The notes under the pieces were generated by a model. It saw nothing but the letters and a program-made list of their open reading frames with translations. It was not told where the DNA came from and ran no database searches. The translations under genes and the position numbers were made by a program. Shown here piece after piece: positions 25,344 to 54,495 of a DNA stretch of 64,000 bases; within the stretch, counting starts at the first letter, position 1; each line of letters starts with the position of its first letter. This DNA comes from an uncultured Gammaproteobacteria bacterium (GTDB lineage Bacteria > Patescibacteriota > Patescibacteriia > UBA9934): NCBI GenBank assembly GCA_964344415.1, contig CAYFMS010000001.1:250620-314619 (forward strand). The letters run 5' to 3'.

Positions 25344-25725
25344 AAGAATGCCTTCGGGCATTCTTTTATTTTAGGGTCGCTTGTGAGTTGGCGACCTTTC
25401 GCTTCAGTTTTCCGTTGCTCATTCACCGTACGTTCCAGTACGGCTCATTCCGCTACCAAGTTAAGGTTGAACCTTGACTGCGATTCGGAATAGGTTCAAC
25501 CTTTCTTGGCTCACTGCGCGACTACGAAATTTCTTTTGAATGAGTGATCCATCGTAAAATAAAGGTTGAACCTCGACTAACTATTCGCACATAGACTCAA
25601 CCTTTCCGAGCCAGCATTGCACTCATCCTTCACCAATATTGCATCCGACATTCTTCACGGATAGGGTCATTCGGGCTAAGTTTGGCCTTGATCAGATGTT
25701 AAAAATTACCTATACTCACTGCGTT

Positions 25726-33484: not shown

Positions 33485-33571
33485 GCCGTGGTGGCGGAAT
33501 TGGTATACGCGACGGATTCAAAACCCGTTGCCTTAACAGGCTTGAGGGTTCGAGTCCCTCCCGCGGCACCA
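33485..33571 (+). tRNA. tRNA-Leu(CAA), type II with long variable arm, CCA encoded
   Basis: Acceptor GCCGTGG/CCGCGGC, 3-bp D stem, anticodon loop TTCAAAA, variable stem GCCT/AGGC, T arm GAGGG-TTCGAGT-CCCTC. Confidence 0.8.
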
Positions 33572-33711
33572 GATAATATGAATGTTATTGTGCCGAGAAG
33601 AAAACCACCTGTGTGGTTTTCGCGGGACGAGAACGGCCGGAGTCATATGCAAACAGCAGTGAGCATGACGAGGCCCGGACCTGAACCCGAGGCTCTGCAG
33701 AGCCGAGAGGT

Positions 33712-33743
33712 GAGGGCGAGTCCCTCCCGCGGCACCAGATAAT
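33712..33743 (+). repeat. Duplicated 3' portion of tRNA-Leu (T-arm 3' half + acceptor + CCA + 6 nt) abutting tRNA-Met; att-like scar
   Basis: GAGGG(-TT)CGAGTCCCTCCCGCGGCACCAGATAAT repeats 33545..33577 with a 2-nt deletion. Confidence 0.6.
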
Positions 33744-33745
33744 TT

Positions 33746-35925: not shown

Positions 35926-35934
35926 CCTTCTGCG

Positions 35935-36599
<665 letters not shown>

Positions 36600-36722
36600 C
36601 ATAACCCGAAGGTCATTGGTTCAAATCCAATCCCCGCAACCAAAAACCTGTCTAGTTTTCTAGGCGGTTTTTTGTTTAACCAAGTGGGACGTCAGATCCC
36701 TTCAGATCCCTGTCGTGGTAAC

Positions 36723-50322: not shown

Positions 50323-51780
50323 TTAGCGCAAAACAATATTTTGGGCATTTTGGCCTAAAATGATAAGAAAATCAACCCCTTCTTCGCCCGAAGGGCTATC
50401 AACATTGAGTTCTCTTGGCACAATTTCCGGTGAAAGGAGCCATCCTTCGACAGATTGAGCGATATCGGCACTTAAAAATTCCTTCAAAACTTCAAGCTCG
50501 GCTGACTTTTTTCCTTCAGTCAAATCGTAAATAATGGTTCTTTCATATCCGCGCGAGTCTGCATTGCTGATATCTGTGATATTGAATCCAGATGCGGCGA
50601 GGATATCCGCAAGATCGCCAGCAAGTCCAGTAACGAATGTCCCATTTTGAATTTCAACGTATATTTCTTGTTCAGGCGGTTCCAGACTACGTGCACTTGA
50701 GAAATCTAAATCTTCGTCACTAAACATATTTGCAGCCAAATATTGCAAGTCAGACCAATCATCTTGCTTTGGAAGTAGAACATAGGCTCCGTTGATCGTT
50801 GATGAATAGAGCGGGCTTCCGGGGGCATCGTCAAGGACGAAGTGATTCATATTGTCATTGCTGAGCTCTGGCGCAAATTTAGCGAGTCGTACCATTTCCC
50901 AAATCGATAAATTCGTTTCGACATGTCGATTGAAAAGTTGAGCAATGCTATTAAGTCGAGCTGGATTAAACAGGGTGCTGCTTGAAAGGATTTTGTCTTT
51001 TGCTGCCGTAATAACCTTTTGCTGTCTAGCTGCGCGCGCAAAGTCAGAACCTTCACCATTATTTCCATGTCTAGACCGCGCATATTGAAGTGCGGTTTCA
51101 CCATTCATATGCTGCCAGCCTTCTTCGAATGTCAGGCTTTGCGTCAAATCGTTCGCTGCTGGATAAAGTGGATCTGTGAATGTGCGGTCGACATAAACAT
51201 CTACGCCGCCAATAGCATCAATGAGTTCTTCAAAGCTCGAAAAATCAATTTTGACATGATATTGGATTTCTTGGTCTAGAATTTCTTCTAAAATGCTAAC
51301 GGTTTGTTCTGGTCCAGACCCCGGATCATCGATTTCTCCATAAGCATTTGCATGATTCACTTTTCGCCAGCCATATCCGGGAATTGGAACGACAAGGTCA
51401 CGAGGAATGGATAGCATGCTCGCTTCATTCGTGGATGGCTTGAAGCTAGCGAGGATGAGCGTGTCTGTTAATTCTGGTCCGTCATGGCTTCCGCCACCAA
51501 TTCCCATGAGAAGGACATTGATTCTATCGTCATTTTCACCAGAAATAGATTTATCATTCGATGTAATGAGACGTTCAAAAGGGGAGAAAAGTGTGAAATG
51601 TTCTCCTTCTCCGCTACTTGTCTGCGCGTATTGATGTGAAAAAAGAATCCCGACAATTGCGAGGGAAAGAAAGGTTGCAATGCCAAATTGGAGTCCGCGA
51701 TTTCTTTTTTTTCGTATGGACCTTTTTGGTGCAAGATTGTATTTCTTTTTAAGAAAATCAACCGAATAATCCTCGGGCAT
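50323..51780 (-). CDS. LytR-CpsA-Psr (LCP) family cell-envelope-related transcriptional attenuator domain protein
   Basis: N-terminal TM then INVLLMGIGGGSHDGPELTDTLILASF. Confidence 0.8.
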   Translation of the reverse strand: MPEDYSVDFLKKKYNLAPKRSIRKKRNRGLQFGIATFLSLAIVGILFSHQYAQTSSGEGEHFTLFSPFERLITSNDKSISGENDDRINVLLMGIGGGSHDGPELTDTLILASFKPSTNEASMLSIPRDLVVPIPGYGWRKVNHANAYGEIDDPGSGPEQTVSILEEILDQEIQYHVKIDFSSFEELIDAIGGVDVYVDRTFTDPLYPAANDLTQSLTFEEGWQHMNGETALQYARSRHGNNGEGSDFARAARQQKVITAAKDKILSSSTLFNPARLNSIAQLFNRHVETNLSIWEMVRLAKFAPELSNDNMNHFVLDDAPGSPLYSSTINGAYVLLPKQDDWSDLQYLAANMFSDEDLDFSSARSLEPPEQEIYVEIQNGTFVTGLAGDLADILAASGFNITDISNADSRGYERTIIYDLTEGKKSAELEVLKEFLSADIAQSVEGWLLSPEIVPRELNVDSPSGEEGVDFLIILGQNAQNIVLR

Positions 51781-52236
51781 AGTTATGGCGATTGTAACAT
51801 GTTTATTGTGAGTAGAAAACAGGGGGTGGGCTACCGTTACGAATTTACAGATAATACGGATATACGGATTTTTGGGTGTGGGCAGCCGTTACGGATTTAT
51901 GTGGAGGAGATAAAAGAGATTGAGGAGATTTTAGGAGCTTCCCGTCATTCCGGCCTCCGAGCCGGAATCCATCGCAATACGAAAAGCGATGGATCCTGAA
52001 TCTAGTTCAGGATGACAAGAAATCGGCATTTCGATTCAACCTTAACTTGGTCGTCGATCATAAACAGATTTGTAATCAAAAACCCGCCGAGTTGGGCGGG
52101 GAGGGATGGGCGCGGCTCGGACAAGGATGAATATCCGAGCCGCGGTGCTTGCGCACATCGGCTAAATCGAGACAGGCAAATGTACTCGGGTTTTCCGATC
52201 CCCTCACGCCGGTTTTGGTTATTGGCGTGAAGATTG

Positions 52237-52336
52237 TGGGCCGAGGAGGGCTCGAACCTCCAACTTCCGTCTATTACATCTCAGGCATAGACCTGAAATG
52301 TGGCAGACGGTGTTCTCACCATTGAACTATCGACCC
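52237..52336 (-). tRNA. Aberrant 100-nt tRNA-like gene: intact acceptor, D and T arms but 34 nt between the anticodon-stem halves (possible small intron or pseudogene)
   Basis: Minus strand GGGTCGA-TA-GTTC-AATGGTGA-GAAC-A-CCGTC-[TGCCACATTTCAGGTCTATGCCTGAGATGTAATA]-GACGG-AAGTT-GGAGG-TTCGAGC-CCTCC-TCGGCCC-A; no CCA encoded. Confidence 0.5.
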
Positions 52337-52428
52337 AGTTTCGGCAGATTATATAATTGCAAAAAGAACGTCAAGCATTTTCTATCCATACCGTAATAAA
52401 TATGCTACACTTTGCGTAGTAAAAATAT

Positions 52429-53031
52429 ATGAGATTTCGAGGACGGCAGTATACTGAAGATCATTTTTTGAAGCGATTATTGGGTTCGACGCTTGGATCA
52501 ATCGCTCTTTTTTTGCTTGAAGTCATTCAGATCGGTGTTATTGCCGGCGTCATCATTTTTAGTGTTCGAACATTTCTTGTGAAGCCATTTGTGGTACAGG
52601 GCGGGTCCATGGAGCCGAATTATTACGATAATGAGTATCTTATTATTAATCAGACGCAAAAGCAGTATAAGCGCGGCGACACGGTTGTTTTTCATCCGCC
52701 CGGAAATGAGCAGCAATTTTACATTAAACGCATTATTGGCCTACCCGGAGAAGTCGTTGAGTTAAAAGACGGTGTCATTATGATTTTTAATGACGATCAT
52801 CCGAATGGTTTTCAGCTCAATGAATCCTATATTCACGAATTCACACATGGACGTGAACGTGTAACAGTTGGTCTTGACGAATACTATCTTTTGGGGGATA
52901 ATCGTGACTCGAGTTTAGACTCGCGGAATTTTGGCCCCGTGCCAAATGAGAACATTGTTGGTAAGGTCTGGTTGCGCGGATTACCATTTGAACGCGCCGG
53001 AATTATTGATAGACCGATTTACACATATTAG
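52429..53031 (+). CDS. lepB: Signal peptidase I
   Basis: VVQGGSMEPNYYDNEYLIINQ (Ser), RGDTVVFHPPG, GDNRDSSLDSR boxes. Confidence 0.85.
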   Translation: MRFRGRQYTEDHFLKRLLGSTLGSIALFLLEVIQIGVIAGVIIFSVRTFLVKPFVVQGGSMEPNYYDNEYLIINQTQKQYKRGDTVVFHPPGNEQQFYIKRIIGLPGEVVELKDGVIMIFNDDHPNGFQLNESYIHEFTHGRERVTVGLDEYYLLGDNRDSSLDSRNFGPVPNENIVGKVWLRGLPFERAGIIDRPIYTY

Positions 53032-54372: not shown

Positions 54373-54495
54373 TCGTAATAAGGTTAAACCTTGCTTGTGT
54401 ATCAAAAAGGTTGAACCTTTTCCGGTTGAGTATTGACAAGGTGGGTCCGATATTGTACACTCCTTGCATCCTAGAATTTAGGGTGAAACCCAAAT

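What the first reader, a model, noticed from the sequence alone, without database searches (positions are those of the whole stretch)
51781..52336. tRNA-like gene with a 34-nt anticodon region, next to a 450-nt hairpin-rich non-coding stretch
The minus-strand element 52336..52237 has a perfect 7-bp acceptor stem GGGTCGA/TCGGCCC, a canonical D arm GTTC-AATGGTGA-GAAC and a T arm GGAGG-TTCGAGC-CCTCC. The only possible 5-bp anticodon stem, CCGTC/GACGG, encloses 34 nt instead of 7, namely TGCCACATTTCAGGTCTATGCCTGAGATGTAATA, which contains the internal hairpin CAGG-TCTATG-CCTG. This is far too short for a group I intron, and bacteria are not known to use archaeal-type BHB splicing. It could therefore be a novel small tRNA intron, a tRNA pseudogene with an insertion, or a tRNA-like regulatory RNA. 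Read directly, the loop starts TGCCACA, giving CCA/Trp if the insertion follows position 37, but positions 33 and 37 are non-canonical. Downstream of it on the minus strand, 52236..51781 is non-coding and packed with stable stem-loops: ATTCCGGC-CTCCGA-GCCGGAAT at 51947..51968, ATCCTGAA-TCTAG-TTCAGGAT, and an 11-bp stem GCGCGGCTCGG...CCGAGCCGCGG at 52110..52145. It also has direct repeats of TACGGAT / CCGTTACG(A/G)ATTTA at 51835..51900 and one copy of the AAGGTTGAA palindrome. It could be a leader or ncRNA for the LCP gene.
Basis: partly seen in the sequence, partly recalled or inferred. Interest (0 to 1): 0.6.

Follow-up and report, generated by a model that had tools for sequence, protein, structure and literature searches.

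The report
Orphan tRNA-like gene, hairpin-extended anticodon arm
A candidate-phyla-radiation bacterium carries a structurally perfect tRNA-shaped gene whose anticodon loop is replaced by a long hairpin, so it almost certainly cannot decode; it is a one-off seen in no relative, and nothing indicates a new kind of bacterial tRNA intron.

Summary
Minus strand 52336..52237 matches the Rfam tRNA model (52.3 bits) with 34 nt between the anticodon-stem strands. Those 34 nt are not a loop: they extend the stem into an 18-bp helix (7 bp, 2x2 internal loop, 11 bp, CUAU tetraloop). All other stems and tertiary-contact positions are canonical.

The intron reading is not supported:
- With the standard 5-bp stem, every 27-nt excision leaves G33 and a pyrimidine at 37.
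- A BHB at 37/38 exists only as an alternative fold, 10 kcal/mol above the minimum, with 3 of 4 central pairs.
- ARAGORN's intron mode gives a different answer, Tyr-GTA.
- No ribozyme core is present.

The gene lacks the encoded CCA that the window's three canonical tRNAs have. Four relatives that mostly share the gene order lack it, and motif scans of public collections found no homologue.

It has a tRNA-type promoter and heads a roughly 270-nt, highly structured transcript that ends at an intrinsic terminator. A separate four-way junction and direct repeats lie before the LCP gene, and Rfam explains none of this.

Best reading: a lineage-specific, tRNA-derived, non-decoding RNA gene. A recent pseudogene is the close rival. 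Interest is modest.

The parts
52346..52374 (-). Sigma-70-type promoter of the tRNA-like gene: -35 TTGACG (52374..52369), 17-nt spacer, -10 TAATCT (52351..52346). An alternative -10 is TATAAT (52353..52348) with a 15-nt spacer.
   Evidence: Read directly from the sequence. The architecture is the same as upstream of the window's tRNA-Leu (TTGACA-17-TAATAT) and tRNA-fMet (TTGACA-17-TATTCT). The consensus scanner did not list it because only 3 of 6 bases match TATAAT in the 17-nt register.
52237..52336 (-). tRNA-like gene, 100 nt: 7-bp acceptor stem (one U.G), D arm, T arm, discriminator A73, no encoded CCA.
   Evidence: Rfam tRNA 52.3 bits over model positions 1-71. The cloverleaf is the minimum-free-energy fold, z -5.3. 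Tertiary-contact positions are all canonical when read from the sequence: U8, A14, A15-U48, G18G19, A21, C13-G22-G46, G53UUCGA58, C61.
52267..52310 (-). Extended anticodon arm, 44 nt. It has 7 bp (the CCGUC/GACGG stem plus U-A and G.U), a 2x2 internal loop CC/AA, 11 bp and a CUAU tetraloop. The 34 nt between the stem strands are 52305..52272.
   Evidence: arm MFE -24.4 kcal/mol; 0 of 2000 shuffles of the 34 nt reach it.
52101..52236 (-). Structured, G+C-rich 3' trailer. It contains hairpin UCACGCC/GGCGUGA and a multi-branch fold with a GUGC-GCAA-GCAC hairpin and a 13-bp hairpin (52144..52111).
   Evidence: Fold z -7.0. GC is 0.53-0.59 against 0.44 for the window. No Rfam match at E <= 10.
52078..52100 (-). 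Intrinsic terminator CCCGCC-CAACUC-GGCGGG followed by UUUUU.
   Evidence: Terminator scan.
51935..52024 (-). Separate four-way junction: an outer stem plus three abutting hairpins of 7-8 bp (51993-52013, 51967-51994, 51947-51968).
   Evidence: Fold -44.2 kcal/mol, z -5.65. Inverted repeats I2-I4. No Rfam match. Both Logan contigs end at the arms of the central hairpin.
52035..52051 (-). One copy (a half-site) of the intergenic repeat ACCAAGTTAAGGTTGAA.
   Evidence: 17-nt identity with 25455-25471. The AAGGTTGAA motif occurs 5 times against 0.81 expected.
51822..51899 (-). Two 26-nt direct repeats (TAAATYCGTAACGG..GCCCACMCCC) with shorter ATCCGTA repeats between them, 40-120 nt upstream of the LCP start codon (51780).
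   Evidence: the repeat finder families D1, D2 and D4.

Best explanation
This is a lineage-specific gene derived from a tRNA. It keeps the complete tRNA L-shaped core, but its anticodon loop is replaced by a hairpin that stacks on the anticodon stem to give an 18-bp arm. It therefore cannot read a codon and is not spliced.

Inferred mechanism:
1. It is transcribed from its own tRNA-type promoter as the 5' module of a roughly 270-nt, highly structured RNA that ends at an intrinsic terminator.
2. Because the acceptor, D and T domains are intact, RNase P should cut at G1, and a 3' endonuclease such as RNase Z should cut after A73.
3. This would release a stable tRNA-shaped RNA and a roughly 140-nt structured 3' RNA.

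The tRNA shape would thus serve as a processing and stability module, or as a protein-binding decoy, rather than as an adaptor.

Shown: the fold, the intact core, the promoter and terminator motifs, the absence of any canonical anticodon loop, and the absence from relatives. Inferred: expression, processing, and any selected function.
For: - tRNA model score of 52.3 bits despite the insert.
- The cloverleaf with an 18-bp arm is the MFE and the centroid fold, z -5.3. The arm has z -5.1.
- All 21 stem pairs of the acceptor, D, anticodon and T stems, and the tertiary-contact nucleotides, are intact.
- The promoter has the same -35/17/-10 layout as two canonical tRNA genes of the window. A terminator lies at 52100..52078.
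- The whole unit has z -7.8 and a local GC peak.
- With the 5-bp stem, every excision leaves G33 and a pyrimidine at 37.
- There is no encoded CCA, whereas Leu, Met and fMet in the window all encode it.
- The discriminator is A73, whereas the Trp-type tRNAs it most resembles have G73.
Against: - There is no conservation. Four distinct relatives lack it (SPase 78%, 78%, 64% and 60% identical). The two 78% relatives have LCP<->SPase intergenic regions of about 270 and 190 nt, against 648 nt here. The 60% relative has an extra ORF in that gap, and the 64% relative has other genes upstream of SPase.
- No homologue was found by motif scans of 185,579 species genomes, JGI metagenomes or IMG/VR, or by translated searches.
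- There is therefore no covariation and no evidence of selection.
- No expression data exist.
- A very recent insertion into a tRNA copy would look the same.
Confidence: 0.45

Rival explanations
1. A recent tRNA pseudogene. A duplicated or horizontally acquired Trp-type tRNA gene was inactivated by a 25-27-nt quasi-palindromic insertion in the anticodon loop, for example by a template-switch event. It is now neutral DNA that has not yet decayed.
For: - It is an orphan: absent from all relatives with mostly shared gene order, and no homologue was found anywhere.
- Key functional positions are non-canonical (G33, C37, A73, no CCA).
- A palindromic insert folds into a helix automatically, so the helix is not evidence of function.
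Against: - There is not a single mismatch in the four stems or at the tertiary positions.
- The promoter and terminator are intact.
- It heads a G+C-rich transcript with z -7.8, which neutral DNA in a 44% GC genome would not be expected to keep.
- A 768-kb streamlined genome tolerates little junk.
Confidence: 0.33
2. A true intron-containing tRNA, in one of two forms:
- tRNA-Trp(CCA) with a 27-nt intron at the canonical 37/38 site, cut at a relaxed bulge-helix-bulge.
- tRNA-Tyr(GUA) with a 25-nt intron at 32/33.

In either case the intron would be removed by an unknown bacterial activity, perhaps the one that removes non-ribozyme insertions from CPR rRNAs.
For: - CCA sits exactly at positions 34-36. 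The best full-length matches among 50,697 phage records are all tRNA-Trp at 74-78% identity.
- In correct BHB geometry, nt 32-35 pair with the last intron nucleotides at 3 of 4 positions. Two 3-nt bulges then place the cuts at 37/38 (sequence reading; energy).
- ARAGORN intron mode calls Tyr(gta) with U33 and A37.
- Both in-silico products are accepted as tRNAs.
- CPR rRNA genes are known to carry excised insertions (PMC9297842).
Against: - The BHB conformer is 10.1 kcal/mol less stable than the MFE.
- A 3-of-4 central helix is expected by chance about 15% of the time (my calculation).
- The Trp product would have G33 and C37.
Its splice sites have no BHB when checked by hand.
- Only 2 of 24 stem/excision combinations give U33 plus a purine at 37, against about 3 expected by chance.
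- With the loop masked, the Trp similarity shrinks to the 3' half.
- No EndA or RtcB gene is among the window ORFs scanned with Pfam.
- It has no encoded CCA, unlike the real tRNAs here.
Confidence: 0.06
3. A cis-acting leader. The whole 52345..51781 stretch would be a regulatory 5' region of the LCP mRNA, with the terminator acting as an attenuator controlled by the structured elements.
For: - It is on the same strand as LCP and upstream of it.
- The 78% relative L007 has the same promoter hexamers (TTGACA-17-TAATCT) followed by a different ~130-nt structured RNA and a terminator-like hairpin just before its LCP gene.
- Direct repeats and a four-way junction lie between the terminator and the LCP start.
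Against: - No antiterminator alternative is evident.
- The terminator lies 300 nt before the start codon.
- No riboswitch or leader family matches.
- The sequence is not conserved with relatives.
- A full tRNA core is not a known attenuator component.
Confidence: 0.1

Closest known systems
Archaeal/eukaryal protein-spliced tRNA introns (bulge-helix-bulge, canonical site 37/38)
   Same: A short insert (25-27 nt) lies next to the anticodon and pairs with anticodon-loop nucleotides. A73 and the lack of an encoded CCA also occur in archaeal and eukaryal tRNA-Trp genes (from my own knowledge).
   Different: - There is no BHB in the stable fold. The only BHB-like conformer has a defective central helix and costs +10 kcal/mol.
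- The product would have G33 and C37.
- The host is a bacterium with sigma-70 promoters and intrinsic terminators.
- No splicing endonuclease was seen among the window ORFs scanned.
Bacterial group I introns in tRNA anticodon loops (e.g. cyanobacterial tRNA-fMet/tRNA-Leu; the fMet gene at 35931-36642 of this window)
   Same: The insert is in the anticodon loop of a bacterial tRNA gene, and the same genome really does carry such an intron.
   Different: The insert is 27 nt, against 635 nt for the fMet intron. It has no P3-P8 ribozyme core, no Rfam Intron_gpI hit and no homing-endonuclease ORF.
Non-decoding tRNA-like RNAs and processing modules (mascRNA of MALAT1, plant mitochondrial t-elements, tmRNA tRNA-like domain, YrlA)
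   Same: It has a tRNA-shaped fold without a usable anticodon. It is predicted to be recognised by RNase P and RNase Z, and so to define the ends of a co-transcribed RNA.
   Different: - Unlike YrlA, the ends are at the acceptor stem and the anticodon arm is closed.
- Unlike tmRNA, it has a full D stem and no coding or pseudoknot domain.
- Unlike mascRNA, the anticodon arm is lengthened, not shortened.
- None of these Rfam families matches.
- The comparison rests on architecture only.
Intervening or insertion sequences in bacterial and CPR rRNA genes
   Same: A helix-extending insert at the tip of a stem of a structural RNA, in a lineage known for rRNA insertions (PMC9297842).
   Different: It lies in a tRNA, it is far shorter than the >=100-nt CPR rRNA insertions described, and nothing is known about its processing.
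Engineered 'tRNA scaffold' RNAs (a hairpin grafted onto the anticodon stem to stabilise a recombinant RNA; recalled from memory)
   Same: The architecture is identical: an intact acceptor/D/T core with a foreign hairpin in place of the anticodon loop.
   Different: That is a laboratory design, with no evolutionary relationship. Here the grafted hairpin has no recognisable function.

Membership tests
tRNA (Rfam RF00005) | Cloverleaf with acceptor, D, anticodon and T stems, scoring above the family gathering score | tested here: met
   52.3 bits against a gathering score of 29, model positions 1-71. The MFE fold is a cloverleaf.
tRNA (functional decoder) | A 7-nt anticodon loop with U33 and a purine at 37, on a 5-bp stem | tested here: not met
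   There are 34 nt between the stem strands, folded into a helix. All eight 27-nt excisions leave G33 and a pyrimidine at 37.
tRNA (functional decoder) | A 3' CCA end like the other tRNA genes of the genome | tested here: not met
   A73 is followed by CAA, whereas Leu, Met and fMet in the window encode CCA. Post-transcriptional CCA addition cannot be excluded.
tRNA (functional decoder) | Conservation as an orthologous gene in related genomes | tested here: not met
   No tRNA was found in the fetched loci of four distinct relatives. No match to the D-loop/T-loop motif patterns turned up in the genome, metagenome or viral collections.
Archaeal-type BHB tRNA intron | Two 3-nt bulges separated by a 4-bp helix, with the splice sites in the bulges | tested here: not met
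   The MFE fold has a symmetric 2x2 internal loop. The BHB-like alternative at 37/38 has only 3 of 4 central pairs and is 10.1 kcal/mol less stable. My first BHB script used a mirrored geometry, and its hits are not meaningful.
Archaeal-type BHB tRNA intron | Presence of a splicing endonuclease (EndA) and an RtcB-type ligase in the genome | not testable with these tools
   Only 64 kb plus 10 kb of the 768-kb contig was accessible. Neither enzyme is among the 30 window ORFs scanned with Pfam.
Group I intron | Ribozyme core detectable by the Intron_gpI covariance model, at least about 200 nt long | tested here: not met
   The insert is 25-27 nt, and there is no Intron_gpI hit at E <= 10 in 51600-52500. 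The model does detect the fMet intron in the same window.
tmRNA / YrlA / mascRNA tRNA-like RNAs | A match to the family covariance model and its characteristic topology | tested here: not met
   None of these families hits the region at E <= 10. ARAGORN finds no tmRNA. The topologies differ (sequence reading).
Known cis-regulatory or sRNA families for 51781..52236 | Any Rfam family match | tested here: not met
   There are only sub-threshold chance hits, the best at 19 bits against a gathering score of 56.

The most novel reading that the evidence does not exclude
The gene is the working tRNA-Trp (or tRNA-Tyr) of this CPR bacterium. Its 25-27-nt hairpin would then be a new class of short bacterial tRNA intron, removed by a protein machinery not yet recognised in Bacteria. 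That could be the same machinery that excises the non-ribozyme insertions from CPR rRNAs. A weaker novel reading is a natural 'tRNA scaffold' that presents a hairpin RNA and releases a co-transcribed structured sRNA.
Probability: 0.06. Interest if true: 0.85.

Novelty: new variant of a known kind. Interest (0 to 1): 0.33.

Why it matters
If the RNA is made and stable, it would be a natural bacterial tRNA core carrying a grafted helix. That would be a small addition to the list of non-decoding tRNA-like RNAs, and a possible processing signal for a novel structured sRNA in a CPR genome.

Its main practical value is as a caution. Covariance-model hits with long anticodon-loop inserts in bacterial metagenome genomes should not be read as introns without a splice-competent structure and comparative support.

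Only if it proved to be the sole tRNA-Trp or tRNA-Tyr gene of the genome would it bear on the open question of how CPR bacteria remove non-ribozyme insertions from structural RNAs.

Tried and rejected
- **Group I intron:** rejected, because the insert is too short and Rfam gives no hit.
- **BHB intron:** my first script had the wrong geometry. With the geometry redone by hand, there is only a defective, energetically poor conformer.
- **Repeated mobile hairpin (MITE- or REP-like) as the insert:** no other copy in the window at up to 3 mismatches, and none in IMG/VR.
- **Homologues by motif:** the genome-contig scan gave 6 unrelated hits, mostly assembly-gap artefacts and odd tRNAs. The metagenome-contig scan gave 0 hits. 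The viral scans gave only unrelated tRNAs.
- **Homology through spurious ORFs (six-frame translations as protein queries):** nothing found.
- **Similarity between the tRNA-like gene and the relatives' intergenic DNA:** not above shuffles. A T-arm-like 15/17 match in L007 is at chance level.
- **The trailer as a degenerate copy of the tRNA, or similar to the tRNA-Leu trailer:** not significant.
- **Target-site duplications around the region:** none.
- **Isotype from database similarity:** Trp when the loop is included, but only 3'-half matches to Trp, Tyr and Asn when it is masked. E. coli genomes gave no match. Identity therefore stays ambiguous.
- **A canonical tRNA-Trp nearby:** none in the window or in 10 kb upstream. 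The look-up meant to extend past the 3' end of the window found no record. The rest of the contig is out of reach.
- **Literature:** no report of short tRNA introns or long-anticodon-arm tRNA-like RNAs in CPR bacteria.

Full report
**Source and context**

The window is from a Patescibacteria (CPR) bacterium.
- The signal peptidase next to the finding is 100% identical to a protein on a 768-kb ENA contig. Its homologues that carry a source name are labelled Candidatus Uhrbacteria, Patescibacteria group or simply 'bacterium'.
- The minus-strand neighbours are LCP (50323..51780), Der and Pth. The plus-strand neighbours are signal peptidase I (52429..53031) and HisRS.
- Window GC is 44%.

- Rfam's tRNA model matches 52336..52237 (minus) at 52.3 bits over the full model, with 34 nt where the 7-nt anticodon loop belongs. 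Default ARAGORN misses it.
- RNAfold gives a cloverleaf as both the MFE and the centroid structure (-47.5 kcal/mol, z -5.3). The 34 nt are not a loop. The anticodon stem continues for 2 more pairs, then a 2x2 internal loop (CC/AA), then 11 pairs closed by CUAU.
- The arm is far more stable than when its 34 nt are shuffled (z -5.1; 0 of 2000 shuffles).
- Read against standard tRNA numbering, every stem pair and every tertiary-contact position is canonical: U8, A14, A15-U48, G18G19, C13-G22-G46, G53-U54-U55-C56-G57-A58, C61.
- The same sequence occurs in two ENA assemblies from two runs, and in the stretch covered by a Logan contig of one of those runs. It is not an artefact.

**Is it an intron?**

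With the 5-bp stem that Rfam aligns:
- All eight possible 27-nt excisions leave G at position 33 and a pyrimidine at 37. The possible anticodons are UAA, CAA or CCA.
- The insert has no group I core and gives no Rfam hit. The same model does find a real group I intron elsewhere in the window.

On a bulge-helix-bulge:
- My first script used a mirrored geometry.
- In the correct geometry, nt 32-35 (UGCC) can pair with the last intron nucleotides as U-A, G.U, C-G and C x U. This gives 3-nt bulges that place the cuts exactly at 37/38.
- That conformer is 10.1 kcal/mol less stable than the MFE. A 3-of-4 central helix is expected by chance about 15% of the time.

On ARAGORN's intron mode:
- It gives a different solution: tRNA-Tyr(GTA), with a 25-nt intron at 32/33 and a 6-bp stem, which does have U33 and A37.
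- Only 2 of 24 stem/excision combinations have U33 plus a purine at 37, and about 3 are expected by chance.
- As far as I recall, bacterial tRNA-Tyr is class II, and this body is class I.
- Both virtual products pass ARAGORN. That shows only that the core is a good tRNA.

I conclude that the intron reading has no structural or statistical support.

**Identity and oddities**

- The insert-less sequence finds 58 full-length matches among phage records. All of those listed are annotated tRNA-Trp, at 74-78% identity.
- With the loop masked, only 3'-half matches remain, to Trp, Tyr and Asn. The body is Trp-like at best.
- The discriminator is A73, where those Trp tRNAs have G73.
- CCA is not encoded, although tRNA-Leu, tRNA-Met and the split tRNA-fMet of this window all encode it.

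**Transcription unit**

- Upstream lies TTGACG-17 nt-TAATCT (52374..52346). This is the same layout as upstream of tRNA-Leu and tRNA-fMet in the window.
- Downstream, a G+C-rich 136-nt trailer folds strongly (z -7.0). It includes a GCAA-capped hairpin and a 13-bp hairpin.
- The trailer is followed by an intrinsic terminator at 52100..52078.
- The 271-nt unit has z -7.8 and coincides with a local GC peak of 0.53-0.59.

**Between the terminator and the LCP gene**

Three further features lie beyond the terminator:
- a half-copy of an intergenic repeat at 52051..52035;
- a self-contained four-way junction at 52024..51935 (z -5.65);
- two 26-nt direct repeats at 51899..51822.

Rfam matches none of them at E <= 10.

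**Comparative evidence**

- Relatives whose signal peptidase is 78% (L007-L009 and L019), 64% (L010) and 60% (L011) identical keep the SPase-HisRS pair.
- All except L010 also have LCP on the opposite strand upstream of SPase.
- In the two 78% relatives, the LCP-to-SPase intergenic region is only about 190-270 nt, against 648 nt here.
- No tRNA was found in any of these loci.
- Their intergenic DNA has no significant similarity to the tRNA-like gene.
- Pattern scans for the D-loop plus T-loop with normal or long spacing found nothing related in 185,579 species genomes, JGI metagenomes or IMG/VR.
- Six-frame translations used as protein queries found nothing.
- The 90% protein cluster of the neighbouring gene has a single member.

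The element is therefore an orphan of one lineage. Covariation cannot be assessed.

**Interpretation**

The data show a tRNA-derived gene that keeps everything needed to fold and to be processed like a tRNA, but lacks everything needed to decode.
- I favour a non-decoding tRNA-like RNA (0.45). It would be expressed from its own promoter and processed by RNase P and a 3' endonuclease. This would also liberate the structured 3' RNA.
- The main rival is a very recent pseudogene (0.33).
- A cis-regulatory leader (0.10) and a true spliced tRNA (0.06) are minor alternatives.
- Expression and processing are inferred, not shown.
- The decisive test is simple: the tRNA complement of the full contig, plus RNA reads over the locus.

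**Literature**

My searches found no report of short tRNA introns or of tRNA-like RNAs with long anticodon arms in CPR bacteria. CPR rRNA genes are known to carry many insertions, most of them predicted to be introns (PMC9297842). That keeps a small probability on an unknown excision pathway.

Noticed in passing
window 35931-36642 (+): The initiator-type tRNA-Met(CAT) gene is split between nt 34 and 35 by a 635-nt group I intron. The exons are 35931-35965 and 36601-36642. The Rfam Intron_gpI core lies at 36392-36576. The intron carries a 172-aa PD-(D/E)XK endonuclease ORF (35987-36505; PF11645, E 1.8e-48). Joined in silico, the exons give a 77-nt tRNA-Met ending in CCA. As far as I recall, this is the same arrangement as the cyanobacterial tRNA-fMet intron that encodes I-Ssp6803I.
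   Followed up: partly
window 33485-33745 (+): tRNA-Leu(CAA) is followed by a structured spacer (33572-33740 folds with z -4.3). Next comes a near-exact 33-nt copy of its own 3' end, including CCA and GATAAT (33543-33577 against 33711-33743, lacking only the TT of the T loop). This copy lies directly before tRNA-Met (33746). It looks like an att-type duplication left by a small integrated element, or a second tRNA-linked structured RNA.
   Followed up: partly
window 25455-25570, 52035-52051, 54407-54415: The palindromic motif AAGGTTGAA(CCTT) occurs 5 times against 0.81 expected, always in intergenic DNA. At 25.4-25.6 kb it forms the arms of roughly 55-nt hairpin elements. A 17-nt stretch is identical between 25455-25471 and 52051-52035. 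It could be a small repeat family or an operator.
   Followed up: partly
window 51935-52024 (-), especially 51973-51986: Three abutting perfect hairpins plus an outer stem form a linker-free four-way junction (z -5.65). Both Logan contigs of run ERR2281801 end at the arms of the central hairpin (at 51972 and 51987), leaving its 10-nt loop unassembled. This may reflect strain heterogeneity or loop inversion there.
   Followed up: no
L007 5745-5960 (-), relative with 78% identical signal peptidase: At the equivalent position the relative has the same promoter hexamers (TTGACA-17-TAATCT). They are followed by an unrelated ~130-nt RNA-like stretch and a terminator-like hairpin with a T run, just before its LCP gene. 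The locus may host fast-evolving small RNAs or leaders.
   Followed up: partly
window 52330-52374: The -10 elements of the minus-strand tRNA-like promoter and of a plus-strand promoter-like site (TCGACC-16-TATAAT, presumably for the signal peptidase gene) overlap back to back. The plus-strand -35 lies inside the 5' end of the tRNA-like gene.
   Followed up: no
L022-L026 (IMG/VR contigs) and L006 (Acidobacteria MAG); also L003, L005: The pattern scans turned up other unusual tRNA-like genes. These include tRNAs with a UAU anticodon and a long, class II-like variable arm in several viral contigs and one MAG. There is also a tRNA-like gene with a 16-nt anticodon loop in a Clostridia MAG, and one with a large insert in Actinomadura.
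   Followed up: no
window 51822-51899 (-): Two 26-nt direct repeats (85% identical, 52 nt apart), with shorter ATCCGTA repeats between them, lie 40-120 nt upstream of the LCP start codon. This resembles a set of regulator binding sites.
   Followed up: no
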